The position numbers were made by a program, and so were the translations under genes. The notes below the pieces were generated by a model. It made no database searches. It was not told the DNA's origin and saw only the letters and a list, made by a program, of their open reading frames with translations. Below are positions 1 to 53,926 of a stretch of 64,000 nt of DNA, in pieces; position 1 is the stretch's first letter, and every line of letters begins with the position of its first letter. The stretch is from Octopus vulgaris (taxonomy: Eukaryota), in assembly GCA_951406725.2 (NCBI GenBank), contig OX597823.1:86180001-86244000 (forward strand), read 5' to 3'.

Positions 1-670
1 CACAATCTGCGTGATCTTGGCATAGCTGGAAAACTTGGAGACTGGTTACATGAATTTCTGAGAAATAGAAGTAAGGCGGTAGTGGCCAATTGAGCCATCT
101 CAATGAAAACACAGATAATGTGGTGTTCCATATAGCACTGTTTTGGGACCACTTCTTTTCATAGTGGCCCTCTCAGATATGTCTTCAATTACCTGGATAG
201 CTACCGTTGCTAGCTACGCAGTCGACACGAAAGTCTCGAAGAAAATACAGAACCCCAGCGATGTTGCACATCTGCAGCAGGAGTTGGACTCAATTTACAG
301 ATGGGACGAGGATAATAATATGCAGTTCAATGCTAAAATATTCCAAGCCCTGCGCTACCAGCGTCCAAAACTGAATATAAAACTTACAAGCTACACTGGC
401 CCACAGGGAATTACAATCCCAGAGCCTAAATGAAAGAGAGACCTGGATATCGACATGAGTGATGATACCTCTTTGCAAGTGCACATTACCAGGATGGCGA
501 CAAAGTGCAGACGACTCTCTGGCTGGATCCTGAGAACATTCAGAACCAGAGATAAGGAAACCATGATGGTCCTCTGGAAGACATTCTTCTTCAGCCGCTT
601 GGATTACTGCTTCCAGCTAATGGTCACCCAACAGTGTGAAATTAACAGTGGACCTTGAAGCAATCAAGTT
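1..670 (+). mobile_element. Decayed non-LTR retrotransposon (CR1/L2-like) reverse transcriptase fragment
   Basis: Translates to GVPYSTVLGPLLF and YAVDT (cf. GVPQG.VLGP.LF, YADDT), then NNMQFN, GWILRTF and SRLDYC; contains stops and frameshifts. Confidence 0.85.
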
Positions 671-2209: not shown

Positions 2210-2700
2210 ATGTACGTACCTACCTCTACATGTATATATGCATGCATACATGGGTACAGGACACAAAAAAACGTCGAACACAATGAGAAACGAAAACATA
2301 AACACAAAAACAAGGAAATGGACATTTCTTTTAAACAACGAATAAATAGAGTACAGGACATACAAAACAAGGAAAATTCCCCTTCTTCAGTCGCCTTAGT
2401 TTCATCTACTCCACGTTTCGAAGGTCAAGGCGATACATGACTTCAATAAAACTTCCCTTCCCGCAAAAATCAAATTAAATAGAATTTGAGATTTTTTGTG
2501 GAGGGGTAAAAATGGTAAAAAAAAACAGGACAGTAACGACAGTACAAAATATAAACAGTGAAAGACAGGACACGGAGAATATCACAAACAAGAAGAGCTG
2601 TTAAGCCAAACGAGATAAAAAATTTTTTACGAACGCTACCGTCTCTACTTGAAGAAAGCCAGGAGAAGAAAAACAGTGGGACCCATCTCATCACGTGACG
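2210..2700 (-). mobile_element. Repeat family P (probable non-autonomous Penelope-like/retrozyme element)
   Basis: Homologous to 10820-11210 (same orientation) and 14832-15130 (inverted); flanked by (TA)n and a purine tract. Confidence 0.6.
2377..2440 (-). ncRNA. Permuted/pseudoknotted hammerhead ribozyme candidate
   Basis: UCAUGU-A-UCGCCUU-gaccuuc-GAAACGUG-14nt-AAGGCGA-CUGAAGA-AGGGG; helices I and III are in exact register with the core. Confidence 0.6.
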
Positions 2701-4039
2701 CGACGGGAGGGAGGAGGAGGGGTAAGAGAAAGGGAGAGAAAAAAGGGAATGGTTGTAGAGAAAAGAATGAAGAATGAGAGAGAGAGGGAGAGACAGTAAG
2801 GTAGAAGAAAAGGAAAGCCAAAAAGAATGAAGGCTGAGAAAGAGAGGGGGAGAGAAAGGTTAAGAGTGCGCATCATTATTAATATTAAGAACAATCTTTC
2901 TTAGAAATGGATGCGTGCGTTCCGTCATATAATAAATATATATATACATATATATTATTTGAGAGTTGCAGTTCGTTTAATCAACTTCGCTTAACGGTGC
3001 TTAGAAAACAAAATGTAGAAAAGCAATCTTGACCTCGACAGGATTTGAACGTAAACCCTCCGAATAAATGCACAATTGCTTTCTGCCCTTATGGATCTTT
3101 TATAATGGTTTTTGAAGGCCAGCAGTTTGTAGGCAAGGTTTATAGTCAAAATTATCAACGTCTGTACATGTCAGGCTTAAATTTTTACTCTTGCAAGTTT
3201 TTAAAATACGGCCTCCACAGAGTGATTACTAACAAAAGGCTAGTCAAAGCATGGAGAGACATGACCAGTGAGACTTCAGTACCGACGGCTACATACAGCA
3301 GCGCTAGGAACATATAAGCTCTCCACTTTTGTCCAGGAGGCCAACAGCTCATGAAACTGGGCTAACTACAGCTCCGTCTATGCTTCAGGCCGTGAGAAAA
3401 TTTTAAAGAAAAATTTATTGTTTTTACGTAACATGTAAAGTTATATCCGGTGTTTGAAGATACGAGAATAATTGTTTTTATGTAAAATACCGATTAAATT
3501 TCTTGTATAGTGAAGGAAATATCTTTATAAGCAAGAGAAAAAAATATGTGTATACACACACATACGTACATATATTCATCCAGTCATACGTACGCATGTG
3601 TGTATATGTGTGTATGCGAGCGTGCTTGAAGGCACGTGGTCTATTCTTTCTTGGTTTCAATTCTTAGACCGGTGGTGCGTTGTCTTCCTGAGCAAACACT
3701 TCGTTTCACTTTGCTCAGCTGTAAATAAGTAGATCTAGGACGCAGTGGTGTTTCGTTCAGGAGGAGTGGTCGCCTGCATTTCTAGCCACCAGGTTAGCAT
3801 CATTCGAAGGCTTTGACCATGCGTTTCCTCGCATTATGACCATGTAACAAGCGATGTATAATAACATCCGATACTCTGGTCGAACACTATACAAATATTC
3901 TTCTAAAAAAACTTTTCTTTTAATTTTTCTAAATTTAATTATCTAATTGTTACATTTGAAAAAGTCTCAATGACTGAAACCGGTACTGAAATATTTTTTA
4001 TAAAATTATTTTAGCATTTTCTGTCTTGACTGTTTTACC

Positions 4040-4162
<123 letters not shown>

Positions 4163-4224
4163 TTTATATATATATATTCTTGTATGTATATCTATATATA
4201 TATACATGTATGTGTGTGTGTGTA

Positions 4225-4395
4225 TTTGTCCCGCCATCACCGCCTGACAACCGCTACTATTGTGTTTACGTTCCCATAACTTTCCGGTTCGGCAAAAGGG
4301 ACCGATAGAATAAGTACTAGGGTTAAAACATAAGTCTTAGGGTGGATTTGTTCCTTCTAGGCTGTACTGAAATAAATAAAGGAATAAAAGAATAA
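4225..4395 (+). mobile_element. SINE family A, 3' half
   Basis: gacaaccg...cggttcggcaaaagggaccgatagaataagtactag, ending in an aataaaag tail. Confidence 0.75.
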
Positions 4396-4400
4396 GTACA

Positions 4401-6120
4401 TACCGTATATTTCCGCGAATAAGACGATCTTCAAATCCTAAAATTTACCCTAAAATTTGAATTTCAAGTGATTTTATAAGTAAGGTAACCTTGTTCTCAG
4501 TGCGATAACCACAGAGATACGTAATCAAATTAATAAAATAAAAGAAAAGATTATAATATAGGTAATAAAAACATTTTTACTTTCTATATTATTGGCATAT
4601 CTTCATAATAAATATACTATTCGAGAGATAATTCTATATCATTGAAATCAACTTTTATCTATGCGATCTCGGCTGAGAAAAGATAAACATCGAGTTATGG
4701 TTGCGCTCACAGAAACCTTTATCTTTCTCTAACCTTTCAAAGATTTTGATGGTTATGTATAACTATAGTAATGGCATTGAGAAAAACATATTTTTCATAA
4801 AATATCTATTATCATTTGGTGGTAAATAACACAATTTGGATCATACCACAATCTTAATTTTTCAATAAAATCATTTTACTATAGTTGCATTTAAAACATA
4901 AGACAATTTTTTTGTTCATTTCCTATGAAGATAAATAATATTAATAAAACATCAAGCCTGCCACGTATTTATCTAAAACCCATCAAATTCCTCATTAGCA
5001 TCACTATGTGTTTCTAAAAGTTTCTCATACATATCACAAGATTTATCACATACGCCATCATCGTAAAGAATCCAGTCTGGTTCTGGTGATTTGACTTCGA
5101 CTTCGTCGTCGGTATTGTACAGAATATCATCTTTGGTACCATCCATGGCATTAGAAATATCGCATTTTAAAAATAATATCATCACATTTTCTACTTTAAC
5201 TTTGTCGCATGCCTTTATAACAAAATCACAAAAGAACCTCAAGTGAGGCAGAACACACAGCTCCACATTTTGTAAAAGATCTTTTTCATTTATCATCCAG
5301 TCGTTCCATTGCTCTCTCACATTGTGGTTTGTTTAAACTGACATCATGTGGCTGCAGTATAGGAGTCAAACCACCAGGAATAGCAGTAATATTGGTTTTG
5401 GATAACCGGGTTTTAGTATTTGCCGTTAATTGGCTACGAAACATATCCCAAACCAATAGACTGCATTCGTTCCGTATGCCTCTTTGCCACCTGTTCCAAA
5501 TATTCTCAATCCATAATTTCACATTAATCTCGTCCATCCACCCTTTCTTGTGAAAATGAACAAAAACGCCAGGAGGAAAATCTATTTTGGGCTTTGTTTT
5601 ACGTTTAAAAATAAGCAAGGGTTTTAATTTTGTACTGTCAGCCATGCAGGATATCACCATAAACCGCGTTTGCTTACACCCTGTACTTCTAACGTGCACT
5701 GTTTTTACCCCTTTCAAATTTACCGTTTTTTTACCCAGCATGTCAAAGTTTAATGGAGTTTCATCCATATTTCCAGTATGAGACAATGGAAGCTGATGGC
5801 TTTTCCTCAGCTGGATGGTAAACTGGTGAAAACTGGTTACTTTGTGATAGAGATCTCTCGGGTGTTTGGGGGCGATTTTTGACTTCCCCATTATTACCAG
5901 ACATTTACTGTTCATAAAACGATCGCACCAGCCTACTGTTGCTTTAAAACCTTTACTTTCTTCTTTATATGATTTATCCCATTTTAGGGCATGCAGAGTA
6001 ATTCTCGTGTTGATATTAACGAATTCTGAGTTGAGTCTTGCAAGAACAGTATTATACTTAGGACCACTAATGGCTGAGTCTACCAAAAGTAAATTTTGAA
6101 AGAAAGGAGATGTCAGCCAT
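4401..6120 (-). mobile_element. Decayed pogo/Tigger-like DNA transposon
   Basis: Candidate terminus taccgtatatttccgcgaataagacg at 4401; transposase remnant inside; second terminus not found. Confidence 0.7.
4973..6086 (-). pseudogene. pogo-family DDE_1 transposase, frameshifted and N-terminally eroded
   Basis: FKATVGWCDRFM (CENP-B-like HTH), NMDETPLNFDM, LLVWDMFRS, IPGGLTPILQPHDVSLNKP; continues in a second frame (4973-5320) with an acidic tail. Confidence 0.88.
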
Positions 6121-7099
6121 TTCTTTCATTTTACAACATAAATGGGCGTTGTTCTCTCTAGGTCACCTGATCATCACCCTCGTTTTACTTTACTCAGAAT
6201 ATTAATCGCTTCCTTTGGGCAATTGTAAATTATTTATGTAGAAGTATGAATGGAGACTTGTTACAGTTTCTCAGACTGATTTCAATGAAACAGTATCTGT
6301 TTTATAGATTAAGATCTTTTGTTATTTAATATTTTAAAAAAATCTCATATAAAGAAGAGCGTTGGAGTTTCAGAAAATGTAGGTTGCGGTGCTGAATTTG
6401 GTCACGTCTTGCTGCGTTCAAATCTGACATAGGTTGTCTCTACTTCTTACGTTTGCAGGATCGATTCCATGCATCCATTGGTGATGTTGTTATTATCCCA
6501 GTTCATCCCTAATTGATTTCACCAATGTTCAAAATCATTCCAGATGTAATCATCTCGTCTTTATTCTTTTTTTTCATGTATTTTGCCCTATGTCCTGAAT
6601 GTGTATTCCACCCCACATCTTTTCCTTTTATGTTGTGATTTGAAAGATTTGCTTACTATCTCTAGCAATTCGTGCGGCTACATAGAAGTAGCCTCATTGT
6701 GATCCATAAATATTTGTTTTTGTTGTGGCTTTTGTTAAACCTTGATCTTCAAGTCTTTATTCCTTACTGGAATAAAATCTCTCAGACTACAGTATTCAAT
6801 GTAGCTAGTAGGCTATGATATACAGAAAAGTTTAGCTGTTGTTTCTAGCAAGGCGAGCGGCTTTGCTATTTAAATGCTGCCTCGTTAATTCGTATAATGA
6901 TCAGTAAACTTGTGCGATTAAATGTTTTTAGATATATTTTTATATATCTTTTTTTTGTACGTTATTGTAAGACTTAAGAAAGCGGATTTCAACGATACGG
7001 TTGAAGGGGTATCTAGGTACGCCGAAGATTTTTTTAAAAATACGAATTAAGTTAATGAAATATCTATATTTTAATTAGAAATTGTATGGATTCCGTCGG

Positions 7100-7720
7100 A
7101 ATGTTTATTTTTATTCTTTCATGGTAGATTAACGTAATCCTTTACCAGGTTTAGAACAACAACATAACATTTAGGAGTCCATAATGAAATTCAATCTGCT
7201 ACAGGTATCTGGACCAGCTCTCTGGTAAGAGAAGAACTTCGCAATATAGCGTACTAAGTTCGATATCACAATGTGGTAACTTGGATTGTGTCATCGAGCT
7301 TTAGATTTTCATTAAAATTTGGTAAACGAAAATTGAATAGGATTTTGTCTGTAACTCCATTTGTATTCTTGTATAAGAAACATGGAAACAAAAGTGACTA
7401 AGAGGTGGTTCTGTCAAAGTCCTAAGTATGAGTTTACTAGTATGTATTGGAATTACATCTGGAATAAGGCCACTTGCACTCATCCCAAAGGACTAAGCAT
7501 AGACGAGGCCCTTCAGCTCTTTAGCTGCTCATCAAAGAAGAGATAATTTCAAATAAATCCTGTCTCCTGATAACTAATGGACTCGTGGTGCTTGTTGCAC
7601 CAGTCCAATATAATTTTGAAAGGACACTGGTTTGTGCAGAGAATGGGTCCGCGCAAAACATACCCACTATAGTAATACTCATCGTGCAGGTTATAGGCAA
7701 GAAGTTACGAGGGAGGGAGG
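7100..7720 (-). mobile_element. Very decayed non-LTR RT remnant (possibly R4/NeSL-like)
   Basis: PRNFLPITCT resembles the P.NYRPITC motif; the remainder is heavily degraded. Confidence 0.3.
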
Positions 7721-8380
7721 ACAAGTCCATTGTATCGACCCCCACTGTTGGACTTGCTCCTTATGTTATCGATCCCGAAGTGAATGAATGTAAAAGTTGA
7801 CTTCGGTGTGTTTTGAACTCAGAACATAAAGAGCCGGAAGAACTGCCACTAAGCTTCTTGTCCGATGTACTAACGTGTCAGCCAGCTCAGCACCTTTTTT
7901 TGGGGGGGGGGGGGGAGGTTGAAAATATTGATTCCAAATTTTGGCATATGGTCAGTAATTTCGTGGGAAGAAGTAAGTTGATTACACCACCCCCATTCCG
8001 CCCCCAGTTCCCAACTGATATTAATTTTATCGTTGCCGAAAAAAAGATGAAAGGCAAAGTCAATCCCGATAGAATTTGGACTCAACGTAAAGACGGACGA
8101 AACACCGCTAAGTGTTTTGTCCGGCATGCTTATAATTCTGCTAACTCCCCTAATAATCATCTGTAATATTGATTTCCAAATTTGGCACAAGGCCAGCAAT
8201 TTTGTGGGAGGAACTAAGTAGATTATATCAGCCCTAGTACTCAAATGCTACTTATTCTATCGTCCCCGAAATGATGAAAGGCGAAGTCGATCCTGGGGGA
8301 ATTTGAACTCAGAGCATAATGACAAGCGAAATGTCGCTAAGCATTTTTCCCGGCACGCTGAATGATTCTGATTGCTCGCT
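7720..8380 (-). mobile_element. SINE family B, tandem array of about three diverged units
   Basis: Repeated ...gatgaaaggc.aagtc.a...gaatttgaactca...gctaagc modules. Confidence 0.75.
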
Positions 8381-9034
8381 ACATTTAGTGTTCAACATGT
8401 TACAGCTCACTGAATGAACAGGGTTCCTAAATGCAACAGTAAACGTTTTGTGTCTTTTCATTTGGGATGTGATTTTTTATCAAAACATCGCTGTTGCCGG
8501 TTTACAATTTCTAGCTTTAAAGACAAACCAACGTAGATGTATTTGCTACGCAGTCGGTTGACTTGTTTGACAACAGAGTTAAATATCCTATAAATCATAC
8601 TCTGCTACCATATAAGGGAAATTACCTGTGAGACATTTTAGCCTCGTTCCTCAATGAAAAAGAAGCTACTAAAAGACCAACCAACAACAAACAAAAAGCA
8701 GATAATCAGCTTTGATGTCTTAGCATTCAGATCTCTCTATTCAGGGCTGACATAGCATTAAGCAACTACAACAGCAGTAATAAACAGGTTTCATAGAGAA
8801 AGATAATCTCTACTGTGGACAAAGTGGAAGATCTAGGAGGATTATTAATAATAAATTCCATGAATGAGGTGACGACATTTTCTTAAGTACACTCTATGTT
8901 GTGCGTCACATGGATATAAAACACAAACGCACGATATAGTGAAGGTGAAAGCGATTAGTAAAATAAAATGCATTAGATTTATAATACTGTATAGTATAAC
9001 TATGAATACACACACACACACACACACATATATA

Positions 9035-9225
9035 GTAAATCCTAAAAATGAAGGACAAACACAACCTTCAACTCGAGGACGTGGTACATGTACAGTATTA
9101 GCAGAAGCTCAGGGAAGAAAAGAAAGGTGGTTTAACTTTTCGAGCAAAGCTCTTCTTTGGAAATAGAGGAAAGTCCAATAGAAAAGGAAGACGGTGGGAA
9201 AAAATCGCCAAAGATACGGATGTGG
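9035..9225 (-). mobile_element. Mini hammerhead element with degraded core
   Basis: Minus strand ccaaagaa GAGC uuu GCUC GAAAAGUUA; homologous to 25310-25497. Confidence 0.5.
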
Positions 9226-9290
9226 TTACGTTTATATATGTGCGTATGTATGTATATACACAAACTAACATATACACACATATACATTCA

Positions 9291-9344
<54 letters not shown>

Positions 9345-9347
<3 letters not shown>

Positions 9348-9580
9348 AGGCAAAACAAGAAAAGGCAAAACGAGAGGAAGTTTAAACAGATGTGCTATTA
9401 CTACAACGCTTGGGTGTAAGAGGAAGGGTCATTTACGTTTCGGAAGTAGTCCTTCATCAGAAAGAAAGTAAATAAATGGGAAAACGGGGAAAAGATGGTG
9501 ATCAGAAAAAATATTTAGGGATCAGCTGGGAATAGGGTTCTATGGAGCGTTACGACGAGAGAACGAAGCCAGGTGATGTG
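9345..9580 (-). mobile_element. Mini hammerhead element (motif 9431-9464)
   Basis: Minus strand uuu CUGAUGA A GGA cuacu UCC GAAAC GUA aau. Confidence 0.6.
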
Positions 9581-9617
9581 TGTATATATACGAGGGTGCC
9601 CATGACACATACATACA

Positions 9618-9754
<137 letters not shown>

Positions 9755-10237
9755 CTATGGATGTGCATGCACATCTATTCTTATACTACGATTAGGGATA
9801 TAAGGTTTATTTATCTTAATGTATAATTACTAAGAAGAACAGATACACATATAAATAATTTACTCTTATAAAAGCATTTCTGTGTGTGACGAATTTTATT
9901 TTTCTCTTTTAAAAGTATAAGGCCTTCTCTCTCCATTTCTCCCTGCCTCTCACCCTTTCCCTGTTTCTATCTCCGTCTCCCTTTCTCTCTCCCTCTCATT
10001 CTCTTTCATAGACTTGTCATTTACGCTTGTCTGGACTTGCGAATACACGAATGTCCGTGAGTGTGACAGAGAGAGAAAGAGGCAGAGAGACAGACAGACG
10101 GACAGACAGAGAGGTAGACAGAGAAACAGAAAGCTTTTGTGTAATGACCGCAAGACTATTATATCTCTTCCTCCAGCGAGATTGTAACAGCAACATACAC
10201 ATTCACACAAACACAAACACAACCACTTCGATACGTG

Positions 10238-12354: not shown

Positions 12355-12420
<66 letters not shown>

Positions 12421-12427
<7 letters not shown>

Positions 12428-12655
12428 GGGAAGAAATTCAAACTTACAGGGAAAAATCAGATTTAGGATTGAATCCAATTTTATAGTAAAATATTATATC
12501 ATAAACAGCCTTGAAACGATCGTAGTGATATATTAATTATATTTTTTAATAATTTTGTTATATATTTAAATAATATAAATTAAATAATCTTATGTATTGG
12601 CTTAGTTTTTCATTGTATGATTTGCCTAATAGTGGTTTTGTCTCTAATTTAATAT
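12421..12655. mobile_element. Rearranged copy of the 40-kb hammerhead palindrome family
   Basis: 12421-12498 is the reverse complement of 40283-40358; 12506-12655 matches 40127-40280 including gaaacgatcgtagtgat; embedded in (TA)n. Confidence 0.75.
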
Positions 12656-12656
12656 G

Positions 12657-12687
<31 letters not shown>

Positions 12688-12689
12688 TA

Positions 12690-13142
12690 CATAAAACGCA
12701 ATTTGTTTCGACCAAAGATTGTTCCAAGCCATGTCTAACTTAATAGCACCACCTGATAGGATTAGCTAAATCCTTTTTTAACTCAAGTTTTCTCGAATCA
12801 TGATCCATTCGAATAGGGATTCTTGTTGAATGAGTTGTATCCAGGTATAGGTGGCTTATCTGGTATTCCTTGAAGAAATTTGTCCAGATTCCGTTTAAAG
12901 ATGATGGGATCGTTTTCCTCTTTGATCTAGTTTGGGACAATGTTAAATGGGGTGGGTCTGTTGAGGAAAAGAACTGTTGTTGCAGGGGTCGTATGACCCG
13001 TGGTCCCAGCCTTGGAGGAATTTTGAAGCTAATATTGATGTCGTTTGGGCAATGCTGGGGTATACTCCCCATATCGTTTAAATGATGTATCGCTCGCGTT
13101 GGCGCTGGAGAGAGTAGATTTTTAATGCTTTAAGGCGGTCCC
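12690..13142 (-). mobile_element. LINE 3' end (CR1/L2-like ORF2 C-terminus)
   Basis: WDRLKALKIYSLQRQRERYII, PNDINISFKIPPRLGPR and FKRNLDKFLQGIPDKPP across frames. Confidence 0.75.
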
Positions 13143-13450
13143 AATATATAAAAAATAAATTAAATATTAATTCAATGAAATTAAAACATGGTCTGGTTTT
13201 CACGTTTTATATTATGGTATTTAAACATTTTAACATTAAAAAATTATTGTATAATGCTCATAAAGTTAAATTAGCTCTTTTATATATTTTTCTTTCTTCC
13301 AACCTCACTTGTTTCATGTAGTTTATGAGCATTACAAAATCATTTTTTAAACTATAGAATATCATAATAAAAAAAAGAGAAAACCAGATCATGTTTTATC
13401 TTTATTCAACTAAGCTATTATTCTATACGCATTCACACAAATTCAAAACA

Positions 13451-13890: not shown

Positions 13891-14622
13891 AGAGAGTAAC
13901 CACCATGTGGTCGACTCTAGCACTAAAAATAGGTCCGCTAGGTTTCACCCACAAAGAATTGTTTCCGATGAAAGTTAGCACGACTACTAGCGCAAACGAA
14001 CAGGGCAAATAAAAATAACAAAAATGCAGATTAGTTCAGGACAATTGTTTCGCTATTAATAAATTTATGTAATTTTACTCACACAACATATCTGTAGCTC
14101 TTCAGCCGAACCCGTCCAAAATACAATTTACTCAACCGCACGCTAGATTTTACCGTACCGATAAACACACGTGCGGTTCAGTCGATTGCATTCGTTGTTA
14201 TAATTCAAGTGCCCCTGCCACAGCCCGCCAAAATTCACGGAAACAGATACTACATCCAAAATTAAATGCAGTATAATTACAATCAACTAATAAGGGTGAG
14301 AAAATTGGATACTAATGTAATAGTACATCCATTTAACACCAAGTGGCTTAGTGCGTAAAAACCTGGATTACAATAAATTTTATACATAAATATAAGAGAG
14401 TAACCACCATATGGTCGACTCTAGCACTAAAAATAGATCCGCTAGGTTTCAGCTACAAAGAATTGTTTCCGATGAAAGTTAGCACGACTACTAGCGCAAA
14501 CGAACAGGGCAAATAAAAATAACAAAAATGCAGATTAGTTCAGGTTTTTACGCACTAAGCCACTTTGTGTTAAATGGATGTACAATTAAATTAGTATCCA
14601 ATTTTCTCACCCTTATTAGTTG

Positions 14623-14625
<3 letters not shown>
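13891..14625 (-). mobile_element. Retrozyme-like element: 504-bp unit with 150-bp partial tandem and an inverted 5' end
   Basis: 13891-14040 repeats at 14395-14544 (4 mismatches); 14541-14625 is the reverse complement of 14281-14365; (TA)n on both sides; contains an HHR. Confidence 0.8.
14034..14111 (-). ncRNA. Type I hammerhead ribozyme, canonical core
   Basis: GUUCGG CUGAAGA GCUA-loop-UAGC GAAAC AAUU GUC CUGAAC; 6-bp helix I, palindromic helix III, GUC cleavage site. Confidence 0.85.
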
Positions 14626-14659
<34 letters not shown>

Positions 14660-15285: not shown

Positions 15286-15289
<4 letters not shown>

Positions 15290-15673
15290 ACAATAAAGGA
15301 ACGGCCATAATAGGCATTCACCTACTAGAAATAACACAAGCTTAACCGCAAATAAAAGTTATTCAGTAAACCAGGAGAAAATTTAAAAACATTTACCCTG
15401 TAATTTCTTATACGATATACCGTTTCATCAGCAGATGAAACGGTATATCGTATAAATTACAGGGTAAATGTTTTTAAATTTTCTCCTGGTTTACTGAATT
15501 AACTTTATTTGCGGTTGAAGCTTGTTATTTCTAGTAGGTGAATGGCCTATTATGGCCGTTCCTTTATTGTTGATGTTGAACTTAAAAATGGTCTATGACT
15601 ATTTTAATTTTTTCCTACTAGGCCGCTGGTGGCAAAAGAATTCTACAAAATTTTTTTTGCCACCCTATATTGA

Positions 15674-15680
<7 letters not shown>
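15286..15680 (+). mobile_element. Fold-back element centred at 15430-15433 containing the 3' half of a hammerhead
   Basis: Arms 15286-15429 and 15434-15574; agat GAAACG guauau CGUA at the centre; homologous to 47153-47660. Confidence 0.75.
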
Positions 15681-15744
<64 letters not shown>

Positions 15745-18412: not shown

Positions 18413-18669
18413 TGTATGTATGTATATATATATATATATATACATATATACTATATTAATAAAGCTGCAAAGAAATCACAAAAACTGGTGCAGCTTTTGT
18501 GGAGTCTTTGTAGATTTATTAATAAAGTATATTATTCTACCTCCAGTTTTCGAGTACTAGTTTATCCACTTTGTTTCACATTTATGTGCTTACTCTGCCA
18601 CACACACACACATGCACACGCACACGCACACACACACACAAACATACACACACACACACACACACACAC

Positions 18670-24855: not shown

Positions 24856-24863
<8 letters not shown>

Positions 24864-25260
24864 CAGTGAAAATCATAAACCAATACATAATTAATTAATG
24901 AAAATATATAAAATATAAAATTCAAAATTTTAAATATTTAAATTGAAGTTAAAATTTTAAAAATTTTTAAATTAATAATTTATACTTATAAATTTTTAAA
25001 TATATATATATATATATATTATTGTTATTTAATTAATTTATTAATTATTTTTTTAAAATTTTATATATATTATTTATTAATTAATTTTATTTCTATGTAT
25101 TGGTTTATGATTTTCACTGTTTGATTTGCCTAATAGTGGTTTTATCTCTAATTTAATATAATATAATATATATATATATATATATTTATACTATAAAATT
25201 AGATTTAATCCTAAATCTAATTTTCCCCTGTAAGTTTGGATTTACTCACTAATATTATTG
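24856..25260. mobile_element. Degraded fold-back copy of the 40-kb palindrome family
   Basis: aaacagtgaaaatcataaaccaatacata (24861) is inverted at 25094-25122; 25094-25258 matches 40214-40358. Confidence 0.65.
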
Positions 25261-25309
<49 letters not shown>

Positions 25310-25315
<6 letters not shown>

Positions 25316-25497
25316 TAATCTAAACATGAAAACACAAAGACAAAACACAACAACGCGAGGACGTGGAACAAGTAAAGTATTATTGGACGCTTAGGAAGGA
25401 AGGAAAGAAGGAGGGTTTAACGTTTCGAGCGGAGCTCTTCGTCAGAGACATAGGAAAAGGAAAGATCCAAAGAAGGGAAGAAAAAATCGCCAAAGGT
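25310..25497 (-). mobile_element. Mini hammerhead element (motif 25415-25450)
   Basis: Minus strand CUGACGA A GAGC ucc GCUC GAAAC GUU; flanked by (TA)n and (CA)n. Confidence 0.6.
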
Positions 25498-38955: not shown

Positions 38956-39378
38956 ACATTGAATAATATGCCCCCGGGTAGACTATTCCTGCTGCAAATA
39001 TTGAAAAGAATATTTATACAGACGTAGAAAACTTCGCTATCCCTAATGGTAACAGCTGTTTCATTACTTACTCCGATTTACATCGTAAACTTTAATACGT
39101 AGCTACATACAATGTAATTACGCTGAACATATAAGTTATATACGTTCATGCATGCATGCACATGAACACAGACAACCTTATACAGTACGTTTGCACATCT
39201 CAGCTGGTGTTTATCGTGTGCTCCGCTTAATTTAGTGAATACAATCTCCCAATATATTTTATTTATATCTATACATACATATACACATATATACGACAAA
39301 ACTCCGGCTCCAACCTTGCTACACCGGCTTCAAATCCGGGTAGCCCCCCCACCCCCGTAATGCAGAATAGTGAAAATT

Positions 39379-39439
<61 letters not shown>

Positions 39440-39508
39440 AATAGATAGATAGGTAGACAGCTAGATAGATAGACAGAGAAAGAGAGAGAGAGACAGACAA
39501 ACAGATAG

Positions 39509-39559
<51 letters not shown>

Positions 39560-39574
39560 AACAAATAGATATGT

Positions 39575-39700
39575 AGATTTCTTTATTGGCCACGCAGGGC
39601 TAAACACAGATGTGACAAAATACAAAGTAGAGTTTTTCTTTTTTGAGAAGAAGAGGAGGAAAAAAGTGTCGAATTGCGATTAAAAGGGATCGTGGAAAAA
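39575..39700 (-). mobile_element. 3' UTR fragment of the L1/Tx1-like LINE
   Basis: Matches 41974-42097. Confidence 0.7.
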
Positions 39701-39703
39701 TAA

Positions 39704-39738
<35 letters not shown>

Positions 39739-39739
39739 A

Positions 39740-39775
<36 letters not shown>

Positions 39776-39785
39776 ATAAATAGAT

Positions 39786-39835
<50 letters not shown>

Positions 39836-39841
<6 letters not shown>

Positions 39842-40358
39842 TTAGAGATAAAACCACTATTAGGCAAATCATACAATGAAAAACTCAAGCCAATACATAA
39901 GATTATTTTAAATATATATCAAAATTATTAAAAAAGATAATTAGTATAACACTACGATCGTTTCATGGCTGTCCAATTCTTAAAATTTCGGGTTACAGTC
40001 ATTCTTCAGGTGATTTAAATATTTAACTTAGCGAGGTTTAATCAATGAACTCATTGATTAAACCTCGCTAAGTTAAATATTTAAATCACCTGAAGAATGA
40101 CTGTAACCCGAAATTTTAAGAATTGGACAGCCATGAAACGATCGTAGTGTTATACTAATTATCTTTTTTAATAATTTTGATATATATTTAAAATAATATA
40201 AATTAATTAATCTTATGTATTGGCTTGAGATTTTCATTGTATGATTTGCCTAATAGTGGTTTTATCTCTAATTTAATATAATATAATATTTTACTATAAA
40301 ATTGGATTCAATCCTAAATCTGATTTTTCCCTGTCAGTTTGGATTTATTCCCTAATAT
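39836..40358. mobile_element. Fold-back (palindromic) hammerhead element in (TA)n
   Basis: Arms 39836-40048 and 40051-about 40278 with a 2-nt spacer (ac); the right arm extends to 40358. Confidence 0.85.
40085..40150 (+). ncRNA. Type I hammerhead ribozyme (mirror copy on minus strand at about 39950-40012)
   Basis: cac CUGAAGA AUGACUGU-loop-ACAGCCAU GAAACG AU CGUA gug; palindromic helix III, GUA site. Confidence 0.8.
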
Positions 40359-40385
40359 TTTATATATATATATATATAGAGAGAG

Positions 40386-40457
<72 letters not shown>

Positions 40458-40650
40458 TCAGGTCACAGATGATTATGGTCCAACTATAAATTCTAAAAAC
40501 ATACATCGCTTTAATTCTGGTGTCTCTCTGTTTGCGCAGTGAAGTGTCGATTTTCTGTTGAAATATTTGTAAACTTATTTGACGAAAATTTCAAATCTGA
40601 AGAAAAATGAATCTGCTCTGATGAAACACAAAATCATGCTAAATTACATG

Positions 40651-42628: not shown

Positions 42629-44966
42629 TCCAAAATGTATCAATAGTTAACTCGGCATACTTGATTTGAAGTCCGCGATCGCCGGATATGAATGCCAGTT
42701 CCTCTTCACATATTTTCAGGCCAATCAATCTTAGATGGAATTTTTATGAAGGGATTTCAAACCTACTCATACACTTCTGTGTTCAATGACGGAAAATAAA
42801 TGTTTATTTTTTCTTCCAGATTTATCAAATGTTCAAATACAATAGCAGTCATTTCTTTTATGCAGCTTTTACGTATTAAGGGAAACATTTCGAAGTCACC
42901 ACTTTCAGCTCTATTTTACCAAATTACAACTTCCTTTTTCAACGAAACCAGCTATCGAAGTGAGAATGTTTTCATTTCTACCTCGCATAATTGTGTTGAC
43001 GCTATTAAGTTATGCAAATATCTCTGTTAAATATTCTAGCTTGGAAACCCTAAATTCACATTGTAGATATTCCAAGTAGCGCGCATGTTTTACTTTTCTT
43101 AAAAGAAAATGCATGCAATTCCTTGTGGAGTTCATGTATGCGACGTACAACCTTACCTTTTGAGAGCCATCTGAATTTTGTGTGTAAAGGTAAGCGCTTT
43201 TGCTAGGAATCCATATCAACACAAATTTATTCAAATAAGCGACACTTCAACGGCCTACTTTCAATATAATTAGCCATTTCAACTTGGTTTAATACTTGCT
43301 TTAATTCAACTGGTATTGTTTCTGAAACCAGTCCCTCCTTATGAAGGAAGCAATGACTACGCTTAACATTAGAAATTTGCTGTTGTATAAGCGATACAAA
43401 ACCTTTGATAGAGCCTATCATAGATGGTGCCCGATCGGTACATATTCCACATGAATTCCAGGATGAATTCCATTGTTCGAGGTAAGCAGATGAGATGTCA
43501 GAAATATCCTGACCTCTTGTAGTCAGTGGCCTTTTCATCGCGACAAAAGAACTGATTTATGATTTGGTTACCATCAATAAAGCGAATAAATGTAAGTAAT
43601 TGTGCTTTGTCGCTAATGTCAATTGACTTGTCAACCCGCAGAGAAAATTCTGAGTTCTGAAGTTTGTTCTGTACATTTTTCCTCTATATCAGCAGATAGA
43701 TCCATAATTCTCCTATGGACTGTATTATTTGAGAGCGGAATCTTGCTCCTTTCTTGCTCGGCTTCATCACCTTACATGGTTTTAACAATCATTCTACAAG
43801 CAGGTAAGATAATCGACGCGGCTAATGTATGCGATTTCGTTTATAGTGCAATCATTTCGGCTATCTCAATAGACGCGACTTGAGCCTTTTCAGAGAGTTC
43901 ATACTTTTTTGTTCTATTTGTTTATATTGTTCTAGCCGTTTTTGTAAATAATCCAGGTCTTTACAGTGAAGATGTGTTTAGTTGTAAAATGTCTTTTTCA
44001 ACTTACTGGGCAATAAGCCTTCGTTGGACATTTTTTCATCACAAACAACACACAGGAAGAGGTCGATTCTCGTTAAATAGCTACTGCAATATTTACGATT
44101 GGGGTAAGCTTTCGCATTATTATCACTACTGAGACCGAGACAAGCGACTAGTGAAGAGAGGTAGCGTGTCACATATCGGACTCTTCTGAGAAATCTTTCA
44201 AATTTAATTGAAAAGATGAAAATTCTCGCCATTATATGAATGAAAAAAATTGAAATACATCTGCAATGAATGAAGACTATTAAAAGATTTAGTTCTGCAT
44301 CGCATATTTTAGTTCGCTTGTTTATTTTTCACACTCATTATTGAAATAAAAATTGCTGAGGCTACGACCGAAATAAACTGAAACAATCGTGCACTGAATA
44401 TGTCCATAAGACGTCAATTTCGAGGATAGATTGATGCTAATTTACTTCTTATCATTATGAAATTTCAACAAAGTCATACCATAATTCGCCTAAATGAACT
44501 GAATGATACGCCCACCTCACATTCATAGTTTAGAACTTAGTTTTCAGTTTGCATTTTTTCATATTTTAAAATATAATCTTACTTTTTCGAGGTGAACGTA
44601 ATCATATCTTGCGGCGCACGGTTTGGGAATCACTGCACTAAACTCATGCATATTTATTCAACCGAAGCTCATACACACACATACACCGACACAGACGACA
44701 CAGACACATATCAACCGCTTCGATCTTTTCGATTTGAAAAACCACTTCAGATTTTATTGAACACGACCAGACAGATACAAGTTTCTCGGCAAATCTCGAA
44801 AACCAGAAACATTTTTTAAAAATGAAATTAACGATAAAAGGCTATGAAACTTTAAATACTTAATTGGGAGGGGTGAGTAAATGTTTCCTCTTAAATATTT
44901 AAACATCCTGGAATTCCATAAATAATCTTGCTCAGACTTGCTACGGTCATTCATGACTGAAGAGGG

Positions 44967-45719: not shown

Positions 45720-46105
45720 TTCTTTATTTACATTATTTACATTCGACGGATATTTGTACTCATCTTGTATGTTTTTAAGACAACGTTTCGGCTGATAATC
45801 CCTCCAGCCTTCTTCAAGTGTCTTGGGGGAAATTTCGAACCTGGGTTCTCATTACTAACATATATTTCGATGTTATTATTATTATTATTATTATTGTTGT
45901 TGTTGTTGTTGTTGTTGTTGTTAGCGTTCAGGTCACTGCTAGGAATGGAACTCGGAATCTTAGGTTTAGTAGACCACGCTCTTAACCGTGGGCATATGGC
46001 GTAGTGGTTAAGAAAAATACCTTAAGAATGAGAACCCAGGTTCGAACTTTCCCCAAGACACCTGAAGAAGGCTGGGGGTATATCAGCCGAAACGTCGAGT
46101 TAAAT
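45720..46105. mobile_element. Head-to-head pair of tRNA-headed elements carrying hammerhead-like motifs
   Basis: Minus copy 45720-45988 and plus copy 45991-46105; CUGAAGA A GGCUG..CAGCC GAAACGU at 46062 (+) and a UUGAAGA variant at 45777-45824 (-). Confidence 0.65.
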
Positions 46106-47033: not shown

Positions 47034-47705
<672 letters not shown>

Positions 47706-53495: not shown

Positions 53496-53926
53496 CACAT
53501 TAAGTTGACAGTATACAACTACTCTATTGTCCCACCAGTGTTTATATCTCTCTGAGATATTTAGAAATGTTATATTTCTATTTTTGTGATCAGTGGATTT
53601 ATTTCGCTAGGATTCTTATATGTTTACGAGGCCTAGACATGCATCTGCAACTAGCAGGCCATGCTACTCCAGACTGATGACGAGAAATACTCAGAAACTA
53701 GTCTCTAGATGCAGGCTTAGCTGTGTGGAGGTGCTTGTCCCCCCCCCCCCTTGTAAACATAAGTACACAGGAAATGTGTCAAGGCCGACAGGAAGCGTTG
53801 ATGCTTCATAGGGCTAAATAACGGTGTTGTGATTTCCTTCATGGGACTCTCACATTAAGTTGACAGTATACAACTCTCTATCGTACAACCACTACTTATA
53901 TCTCTCGGAGATATTTAGAAATTTAG

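What the first reader, a model, noticed from the sequence alone, without database searches (positions are those of the whole stretch)
39836..40358. Near-perfect 2 x 210-bp palindrome carrying a hammerhead on each strand
The arms are separated by only 2 nt and look identical over about 145 bp, with one 14-nt indel further out. Each orientation carries a full type I HHR. Relatives at 12421-12655 (helix I variant gtgat pairs better with atcac) and 24856-25260 also contain inversions but at different breakpoints. Inversion therefore appears to arise anew at each insertion, as expected for Penelope-type template switching. A transcript would form long dsRNA, a possible ADAR or siRNA substrate.
Basis: partly seen in the sequence, partly recalled or inferred. 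Interest (0 to 1): 0.72.

Follow-up and report, generated by a model that had tools for sequence, protein, structure and literature searches.

The report
Head-to-head Penelope insertion with mirrored hammerhead
This DNA palindrome is two copies of a very common short repeat joined back to back inside a TA run, likely the scar of a Penelope-type jumping gene whose enzyme would have copied one RNA from both strands of the cut; its predicted self-cutting RNA motif appears twice only because of the mirroring, a pattern already in print.

Summary
The palindrome is in the sequence. The arms (39836-40048, 40051-40277) are perfect over 147 bp, then differ by one 14-nt gap and one substitution. An ~85-nt tail lies on the right side only, and both ends run into (TA)n. 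Each arm holds a minimal type I hammerhead motif, but only as mirror images: any transcript has one in sense, and the predicted -327 kcal/mol hairpin buries it.

In contigs of independent runs the repeat is very abundant. It has a common 5' end at about 40051-40054, a common short 3' end at about 40280-40285, and at least 18 different inversion junctions. So inversions likely arise at insertion, and an assembly chimera is unlikely.

Best reading: a Penelope-like (PLE) terminal-repeat insertion made by two reverse transcriptions, primed from both target strands at two start sites and joined head to head. Inverted tail-less copies and hammerheads on opposite strands are published PLE features. 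This scan has already reported the same architecture on other DNA of this genome.

Not shown: the protein-coding partner, ribozyme cleavage, transcription, editing. One weak lead: some junction ends cluster near the predicted cut site.

The parts
39788..39838 (.). (TA)n run on the left: the insertion target; (GATA)n lies further left on the + strand
   Evidence: sequence; 37 GATA and 0 TATC in 39370-39790
39836..40048 (-). inverted, tail-less copy of the repeat. Its outer end is the family's short 3' end (element position 40277-40285, blurred by TA microhomology). It carries a private 14-nt deletion between short TAAT repeats at 39901/39902
   Evidence: the short end is seen as loose ends into (TA)n in 38, 26, 21 and 32 contigs of X1-X4
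39948..40014 (-). mirror copy of the minimal type I hammerhead motif; predicted cut after 39953
40049..40050 (.). 2-nt apex; likely two more templated letters of the left arm rather than a loop (inferred)
   Evidence: X1 record 2 aligns through 40051 before leaving, and an X13 contig shows the complementary letters upstream of the element start
40051..40277 (+). forward copy, body. Its start (40051-40054, an initiator-like TCATT; label recalled) is the family's common 5' end
   Evidence: 15 of 22 loose-end rows shown lie at 40044-40054 with unlike sequence beyond; summed depth is lowest at 40050-40052 in the three DNA-type runs
40085..40151 (+). minimal type I hammerhead motif: core 40090-40096, helix II 40097-40103/40128-40134, GAAA 40135-40138, self-complementary 40138-40145, predicted cut after 40146, helix I 40087-40089/40147-40149
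40278..40365 (+). one-sided tail (~80-88 nt) ending in (TA)n; folds as a stem-loop (-15.2 kcal/mol, z -1.98 for 40260-40365)
   Evidence: also present in the 12.4-kb and 24.9-kb copies
40362..40457 (.). right flank (TA)n-(GA)n-(GATA)n, with GATA on the same strand as in the left flank
   Evidence: 17 GATA and 0 TATC in 40375-40460
12415..12503 (-). second family copy, tail-bearing arm (element 40277-40365), 84/89 identical
12505..12666 (+). second family copy, tail-less arm (element 40127-40289), 152/161 identical; 3' half of the hammerhead only; shares a private G with its other arm in the 13-nt overlap
24863..24934 (-). third family copy, inverted arm (element 40167-40240), 60/70 identical; its outer end is not at the usual short end
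25039..25266 (+). third family copy, forward arm with tail (element 40153-40365), 186/205 identical; no hammerhead

Best explanation
The palindrome is two copies of an abundant ~315-nt repeat joined head to head in a (TA)n run, likely one insertion of a Penelope-like terminal-repeat RNA that would have been copied twice by the element's enzyme, once from each strand of the cut target. Proposed steps: (1, inferred) an RNA starting at about 40053 is bound by a PLE protein made elsewhere, which cuts both strands of (TA)n. (2, inferred from the two ends shown) one DNA end primes at the long end (~40365) and the other at the short end (~40280-40285), which leaves a tail on one side only. (3, shown as outcomes) each copy stops somewhere toward the 5' end, and the two stopped ends are joined. 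(4, inferred) at this locus both ran to the RNA's 5' end, so the join is symmetric and both arms contain the hammerhead. (5, inferred) a 14-nt deletion and one substitution arose during or after insertion. The mirrored hammerhead likely does nothing here: a read-through RNA is predicted to bury it in a 213-bp hairpin, and its self-complementary helix III would need a second sense copy.
For: (a) Anatomy matches published PLE insertions: inverted 5'-truncated copy, one-sided tail, (TA)n target (PMC8557442, passages and section 11; PMC3846280, passages). Opposite-strand minimal hammerheads 100-700 bp apart are reported in Schistosoma (PMC4209133), and Penelope-13_HM is listed with a hammerhead on both strands (File S2).
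(b) The Anolis PLE protein cuts and extends both strands and starts at two sites that bound the tail (PMC11167929).
(c) Short end into (TA)n in 38/26/21/32 contigs of X1-X4. Common 5' end: 15 of 22 loose-end rows shown.
(d) 18 distinct inversion junctions, with the two 5' ends 0 to 229 nt apart. In 3 of 18, and in the 12.4-kb copy, the tail arm starts at or beyond the short end and cannot have templated the other arm.
(e) Both arms share letters that are rare in the family (G40227, C40108; the other letter makes up 97-100% of summed depth at these right-arm positions), and the two arms of the 12.4-kb copy share a private G: one source per insertion.
(f) The flanks are not mirrored.
(g) A second, different family shows the same architecture at 15286-15685.
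(h) 67 of 67 hammerhead letters pair with the other arm in the predicted fold.
Against: No RT or GIY-YIG coding sequence could be tied to the family: 0 of 73 ORFs in the window hit such a Pfam family, one read-through frame found no homologue, and no genome was held. PLE origin therefore rests on anatomy alone.

The tail is 2-3 times longer than the published 30-40 bp. The 24.9-kb copy's inverted arm ends at ~40240, not at the short end, and a copy of the second family (47152-47399) has the long end on both arms, so two start sites are not a strict rule.

5 of 18 junctions are symmetric within 5 nt (P = 0.0095 under random pairing), which self-priming would also give; for this symmetric locus alone the two models cannot be told apart.

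The junction rows are the tool's best-supported subset (15 of 40 joints, 12 of 25 rows of table 5c). No record spans the locus, and the apex-crossing contigs have fewer than 31 letters on each side.
Confidence: 0.72

Rival explanations
1. Same PLE insertion, but the inversion comes from self-priming or template switching: one cDNA folds back on itself (or an antisense RNA self-primes) and the return strand is caught by the TA target.
For: PMC3846280 reads palindromic junctions as self-priming (passage). 5 of 18 junctions are near-symmetric. The arms here share rare letters.
Against: It cannot make the 12.4-kb copy or 3 of 18 junctions without a later deletion, because the tail arm lacks the template for the other arm. 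It does not by itself explain why the inverted arm ends at the same short end as many other copies. I saw no pre-existing hairpin at the apex.
Confidence: 0.15
2. A single forward copy was duplicated and inverted later by DNA repair (fold-back at a break), or two neighbouring copies were made alike by gene conversion.
For: AT-rich, microsatellite-flanked DNA; arms nearly identical.
Against: The inversion stops at the family's short end and includes no flank. Inversions recur in all three copies in the window and in a second family.
Confidence: 0.05
3. Library or assembly chimera (a read that folds back on itself).
For: A 2-nt apex and 147 perfect pairs are what such chimeras look like (general knowledge). 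No record spans the locus.
Against: The flanks are not mirrored. The arms differ by a 14-nt deletion between short repeats and by one substitution. The tail is on one side only. Three X1 contigs cross an apex of this kind (53, 42 and 48 letters with 4, 1 and 5 differences; below the tool's 31-letter rule). Near-symmetric joins occur at other positions in short-read contigs, some in two runs with different organism labels.
Confidence: 0.04
4. A selected RNA device: an ambisense, viroid-like pair of ribozymes, or a kept source of dsRNA for editing or siRNA.
For: A read-through RNA is predicted to form a -327 kcal/mol hairpin. Palindromic repeats are heavily edited in frog, and octopus has very high hyper-editing (PMC5625713, passages). 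Family variants listed at >=5% avoid the hammerhead core and stems (0 of 39 positions against 4 of 24 in loop II, P = 0.018).
Against: The two motifs are identical mirror copies, not independently evolved. The hairpin blocks the fold. Breakpoints vary from copy to copy. Core conservation is a property of the source element, not of this locus. No head-to-tail monomers here.
Confidence: 0.03
5. A fold-back DNA transposon or MITE with long terminal inverted repeats.
For: Long inverted arms in a TA target.
Against: One-sided tail, 18 different apexes, many more contigs on the 3' part than on the 5' part, and a hammerhead motif.
Confidence: 0.01

Closest known systems
EN+ Penelope-like elements with an inverted 5'-truncated pLTR and one-sided tail (PMC8557442 Fig. 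2 legend, passages; Adineta Pen2a, PMC3846280, passages)
   Same: head-to-head inverted copy, tail on one end only, hammerhead near the 3' end, simple AT-rich target
   Different: no ORF or direct pLTR here; tail ~80-88 nt instead of 30-40; target-site duplication not readable in (TA)n
Hydra-clade PLEs, incl. Penelope-13_HM and Hydra-1_Obim (PMC8557442 section 11; Files S1 and S2, one part read plus searches)
   Same: (TA)n target; T before the GAAA box in 17 of 25 listed families (my count); Penelope-13_HM has an inverted 5' copy and a hammerhead on both strands
   Different: the hammerhead sequence differs from Hydra-1_Obim's; four short motifs from the window (three from this family, one from the second) were not found in the supplement (weak, as lines are wrapped and cut); the clade-defining protein motifs could not be tested
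Minimal type I hammerheads of metazoan PLEs (PMC4209133, parts 1-2 of 4 read)
   Same: conserved core, long helix II, short helix I, palindromic helix III that suits a dimer; opposite-strand pairs reported
   Different: A-U instead of G10.1-C11.1; no extra nucleotide after A9 if that pair forms; long (24-nt) loop II; a mismatch in helix II
Poseidon of Anolis (PAc; PMC11167929, parts 1-2 of 4 read plus passages)
   Same: its cutting and extension of both strands and its two start sites bounding a tail would give this anatomy
   Different: shown in vitro for another clade; the paper does not discuss head-to-head products (its one 'inverted' is a blocking dT); it found uncut RNA to be the main template
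Animal non-LTR retrozymes (PMC7229834, passages; bioRxiv 10.64898/2026.07.22.740005, part 1 of 5)
   Same: short (~300 nt), AT-rich, non-coding repeat with a type I hammerhead, probably moved by PLE enzymes
   Different: retrozymes are head-to-tail tandem monomers giving circular RNA; here the copies are head to head and truncated, and none of the three copies in the window is a tandem of monomers
Twin priming of LINE-1 (recalled, no paper read)
   Same: two target ends prime on one RNA and give an inversion; the 12.4-kb copy has that shape
   Different: here the second start site looks fixed, and the first cDNA can run past it, giving overlapping arms and palindromes

Membership tests
EN+ Penelope-like element | ORF with PLE reverse transcriptase and GIY-YIG endonuclease linked to the repeat | tested here: inconclusive
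   no such Pfam hit among 73 ORFs of the window; one of three read-through frames searched, no candidate; no genome held
EN+ Penelope-like element | inverted 5'-truncated copy joined head to head | tested here: met
   18 junctions
EN+ Penelope-like element | tail on one end only | tested here: met
   40278-40365; short end in 117 contigs over four runs; longer than the published 30-40 bp
EN+ Penelope-like element | hammerhead motif near the 3' end of the pLTR | tested here: met
EN+ Penelope-like element | partial head-to-tail tandem forming direct pLTRs | tested here: inconclusive
   none in the three window copies; one back-jump joint 40317->40271 in X2; no genome to search
EN+ Penelope-like element | target-site duplication | not testable with these tools
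   both ends lie in (TA)n
Hydra clade of PLEs | insertion into (TA)n | tested here: met
   all three copies; loose ends
Hydra clade of PLEs | RWK, DKT and CxCX5C motifs, no CCHH | not testable with these tools
   no protein of the family in hand
Hydra-1_Obim family | sequence identity to the published element | tested here: not met
   its hammerhead row in File S2 differs in every stem and in the 3' flank (compared by eye)
PLE minimal type I hammerhead | core boxes with helices I and II | tested here: met
   helix II pair probabilities 0.86-0.97, helix I 0.33-0.36
PLE minimal type I hammerhead | palindromic helix III / loop 3 | tested here: met
   40138-40145 equals its own reverse complement; 8-bp intermolecular duplex -10.0 kcal/mol
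PLE minimal type I hammerhead | G10.1-C11.1 pair with an extra nucleotide after A9 | tested here: not met
   A40097-T40134; T at this place is common in Hydra-clade motifs (17 of 25), so this lowers the fit to the 2014 consensus, not the reading as a PLE hammerhead
PLE minimal type I hammerhead | self-cleavage | not testable with these tools
   needs an in vitro assay; no Rfam hammerhead hit
Non-LTR retrozyme | two or more head-to-tail monomers, each with a sense hammerhead | tested here: not met
   copies are head to head at all three loci; other loci not examined
Non-LTR retrozyme | circular monomer RNA | not testable with these tools
   only contigs available
MITE / fold-back DNA transposon | fixed terminal inverted repeats at both ends and fixed internal structure | tested here: not met
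   one-sided tail, variable apex

The most novel reading that the evidence does not exclude
The apexes of these palindromes are a genomic record of RNA 5' ends: both copying enzymes run off the same end of one RNA, either the capped start (this locus) or the end left by hammerhead self-cleavage. If so, this minimal hammerhead cuts in the germ line and the cut RNA is still used as a template, against the in vitro result for the Anolis element, and any genome rich in PLEs can be read for in vivo ribozyme activity. Hint: 6 of 36 junction ends fall at 40145-40152 (1.1 expected; P = 0.0008 for this window, which I drew after seeing the joints; 0.08 for any 8-nt window). Only 2 lie within 1 nt of the first base after the cut (P = 0.07). 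5 of 18 junctions are symmetric. The rows are a selected subset.
Probability: 0.25. Interest if true: 0.55.

Novelty: new member of a known kind. Interest (0 to 1): 0.2.

Why it matters
As a locus it matters little: it is one of many insertion scars, and both the inverted copy with a tail and the opposite-strand hammerhead pair are in print. Its value is as data on how PLEs insert, which the literature calls unresolved (PMC8557442, PMC11167929). Fixed start and end points plus asymmetric junctions favour two-strand priming over the published self-priming model, and junction ends could report whether minimal hammerheads cut in vivo. Such self-contained hairpins could also be a large source of the dsRNA behind high A-to-I editing, if the genome is an octopus as earlier notes of this scan say (not checked here) and if the loci are transcribed.

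Tried and rejected
GENOME AND DATABASES. No genome was held, so no census of copies and no search for a coding partner were possible. Rfam gave no hit at gathering in the window; at E<=10 it gave only generic hairpin (miRNA-type) and weak hits, no hammerhead family. Two metagenome pattern scans gave 0 loci and 2 loci; both are chance 21-nt matches in unrelated sequence. A bacterial promoter scan does not apply and found nothing.

PROTEIN. My early idea that the element start is the end of a GIY-YIG gene was dropped: the frame stops after six codons and nothing shared lies upstream. One read-through frame against longer proteins found no candidate (weak; the other two frames were not searched). 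Of 73 low-complexity-filtered ORFs >=75 aa, one hit Pfam (DDE_1); no host gene or PLE domain (short exons would be missed), so I cannot say whether the locus lies in an intron.

EXPRESSION. No RNA holder listed. One run guessed to be RNA (X13) gave 3 contigs on the element start, none across the apex; this shows nothing about this locus. No record spans the locus. Summed depth is not used as a copy number.

FOLDING. The isolated hammerhead region does not fold better than shuffles (z 0.7-1.0), as expected of minimal motifs.

LITERATURE. 'octopus' + 'hammerhead ribozyme' and 'Penelope-like' + 'octopus' + 'non-autonomous' showed no description of this family (listings only). 'Penelope-like' + 'inverted' + 'twin priming' gave two papers on other subjects (listing only), and 'Penelope' + 'head-to-head' + 'pLTR' gave only PMC3846280. 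The library lacks most subscription papers, and Repbase/Dfam could not be searched, so the family may be catalogued. Supplements of PMC4209133 and PMC11167929 were not opened, and that of the bioRxiv retrozyme preprint is closed; they may hold similar motifs. Look-ups of earlier scan notes by sequence, relatives and nearness were empty.

Full report
1. OBSERVATION. The window is AT-rich, microsatellite-dense animal-type DNA with no N. Earlier notes of this scan call the genome an octopus; I did not test that. The palindrome is there: apex 40049-40050, 147 perfect pairs, then 14 extra letters in the right arm and one substitution, 212 of 213 aligned letters identical. Shuffles reach at most 12 pairs. 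The left arm ends in (TA)n at about 39836. The right arm goes on for an unpaired tail of ~85 nt before its own (TA)n.

2. THE HAMMERHEAD. Each arm holds the core boxes, a 7-position helix II with one mismatch, a 24-nt loop II, an 8-nt self-complementary helix III region and a helix I of 3 bp. The scan that finds it gives 5 motifs in the window against 0.13 in shuffles. Rfam does not find it. It fits the minimal PLE hammerheads of PMC4209133 (parts 1-2 read) in its long helix II, short helix I and palindromic helix III. It departs from them in having A-U in place of G10.1-C11.1; a T there occurs in 17 of 25 Hydra-clade families of File S2 of PMC8557442 (my count). Variants listed at >=5% in four runs fall in loop II (4 of 24 positions) and not in the core or stems (0 of 39; P = 0.018). 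Against a strict reading, one search shows single contigs with a change at the free core position and one with a broken core, and the 12.4-kb copy breaks a helix II pair. The two motifs are mirror images, so an RNA from either strand has one in sense, and in the predicted fold all 67 of its letters pair with the other arm (-326.6 kcal/mol for 39836-40290). The 'gtgat' variant sits in a copy that lacks the 5' half of the motif.

3. THE FAMILY. Twenty listed runs of 9 studies and 4 organism labels hold part of the stretch. In X1-X4, 2,534 to 9,835 contigs lie on it. Summed depth reaches 10^5-10^6, while contigs that run into unique flank have depths of about 8-50: a very abundant repeat, though this is no copy number. 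Short 3' end: loose ends into (TA)n at 40285 in 38, 26, 21 and 32 contigs, the place where the left arm ends. Long 3' end: about 40365 in all three window copies; the tool masks that part. 5' end: 15 of 22 loose-end rows shown (11 hidden) lie at 40044-40054, followed by TA runs, unrelated flanks or other parts of the element, with no shared upstream sequence. The unit is thus about 315 nt, with stops in all six frames.

4. JUNCTIONS. From I took the 15 joints shown of 40, plus 3 of the 12 rows shown of 25 in table 5c. I dropped 9 rows: 5 repeats of table 5 rows, 1 second variant, 2 reverse readings of the same junction and 1 direct back-jump. The 18 junctions have 5' ends 0-229 nt apart. Five are symmetric within 5 nt (P = 0.0095 under random pairing; one has 6-7 letters between and may be less exact). 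In three, the tail arm starts at or beyond the short end, as in the 12.4-kb copy, whose tail arm is element 40277-40365 and whose other arm is 40127-40289. Some junctions occur in two runs with different organism labels. Six of 36 ends lie at 40145-40152, near the predicted cut: P = 0.0008 for that window, which I drew after seeing the joints, 0.08 for any 8-nt window, and only 2 lie within 1 nt of 40147 (P = 0.07). Three of 36 lie at 40051-40055 (P = 0.03).

5. ARTEFACT? The flanks are not mirrored: GATA repeats lie on the + strand on both sides (37/0 and 17/0 GATA/TATC). The arms differ by a deletion between short TAAT repeats and by a substitution. A second family shows the same build at 15286-15685: (TA)n, inverted tail-less arm, 4-nt apex, forward arm, ~105-nt tail, (TA)n. 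No spanning read was available. I put a chimera at 4%.

6. MECHANISM. Shown: two 3' ends, one common 5' end, variable head-to-head joins, one source variant per insertion, TA targets. From papers: PLE insertions carry an inverted 5'-truncated copy and a one-sided tail (PMC8557442, passages), and the Anolis PLE protein cuts and extends both strands and starts at two sites that bound the tail (PMC11167929). Inferred: each target strand primes one cDNA, one at each start site, and the stopped ends are joined; here both ran to the RNA's 5' end. The published alternative is self-priming (PMC3846280). It fits symmetric cases such as this one, but not the asymmetric ones without later deletion. Results against a strict two-site rule: the 24.9-kb copy's inverted arm ends at ~40240, and a second-family copy at 47152-47399 has the long end on both arms.

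7. COMPARISON. It works like an EN+ PLE insertion. Membership rests on anatomy, since no coding partner was found. It resembles Hydra-clade elements in target and hammerhead detail but is not Hydra-1_Obim. It is not a tandem retrozyme at these loci, nor a MITE. Hammerheads on both strands are in print: opposite-strand pairs in Schistosoma and Penelope-13_HM. I found no description of this family and no paper tying two-strand priming to head-to-head PLE copies, within a library that lacks most subscription journals and without Repbase or Dfam. The scan's own earlier notes already describe this architecture and this mechanism for several families of the same genome. My two-strand reading was stated before I saw them; they are not independent support.

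8. dsRNA. If transcribed, the locus would give a near-perfect hairpin of ~210 bp, the kind of substrate that is hyper-edited in frog palindromic repeats (PMC5625713, passages). Nothing here shows that it is transcribed, edited or diced.

9. VERDICT. Observation confirmed; interpretation partly supported; new member of a known kind; interest 0.2. The one open lead is the clustering of junction ends near the predicted cut (probability 0.25, interest 0.55 if true).

Noticed in passing
window 15286-15685: A second, different family with the same build: (TA)n, inverted tail-less arm, 4-nt apex inside the 3' half of a hammerhead-like box, forward arm, ~105-nt tail with its own hairpin, (TA)n. The arms differ by several small indels.
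   Followed up: partly
window 47152-47399: Another copy of that second family, in which both arms carry the long (tail) end: an exception to the one-sided-tail pattern.
   Followed up: partly
window 13950-14634: A type I hammerhead on the - strand (14105 to 14040) with a 5-bp helix I, a 47-nt helix II and loop region and an 8-nt self-complementary helix III, near a partial direct repeat (about 14410-14545) and an inverted pair (14272-14365 / 14541-14634).
   Followed up: no
window 45774-46104: Head-to-head pair of hammerhead-like motifs (one with a broken core), each preceded by what looks like a tRNA-type head with A- and B-box-like words (by eye; labels recalled); like the tRNA-headed family in earlier scan notes.
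   Followed up: no
window 9434-9460, 14796 and 14945, 25425-25447, 53674-53703: Further hammerhead-like cores of unrelated sequence, one pair head to head; some pass the scans, others were seen by eye.
   Followed up: no
window 40019 (mirror of 40080), runs X1, X3, X6: The same loose end in three runs: copies that match the element's first 30 letters and then leave it with a sequence that begins GT, 5 nt before helix I. It may be a 5' intron of an unspliced source element (in D. virilis the intron ends at helix I, PMC4209133) or just one shared truncated locus.
   Followed up: no
window 40059-40094, run X13 (RNA is a guess): A 71-nt contig with depth 124 (the other two have 19-26) carries a few letters upstream of the common 5' end and a changed free core position; perhaps a longer source transcript, not established.
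   Followed up: no
window 5289-6125 (-): Fragment of a DDE_1 (pogo-type; label recalled) transposase, E 3.6e-13.
   Followed up: no
window 119-433, 12740-13129, 43227-44328: ORF pieces that look by eye like a LINE reverse transcriptase, a LINE 3' end next to the 12.4-kb copy, and a hAT-type transposase; no Pfam hit at E<=0.001.
   Followed up: no
window 39570-39710: A different high-copy repeat in the left flank, between microsatellites (summed depth 10^3-10^5).
   Followed up: no
window 13167-13413 and 18446-18532: Two more local inverted repeats, 74% and 80% alike.
   Followed up: no
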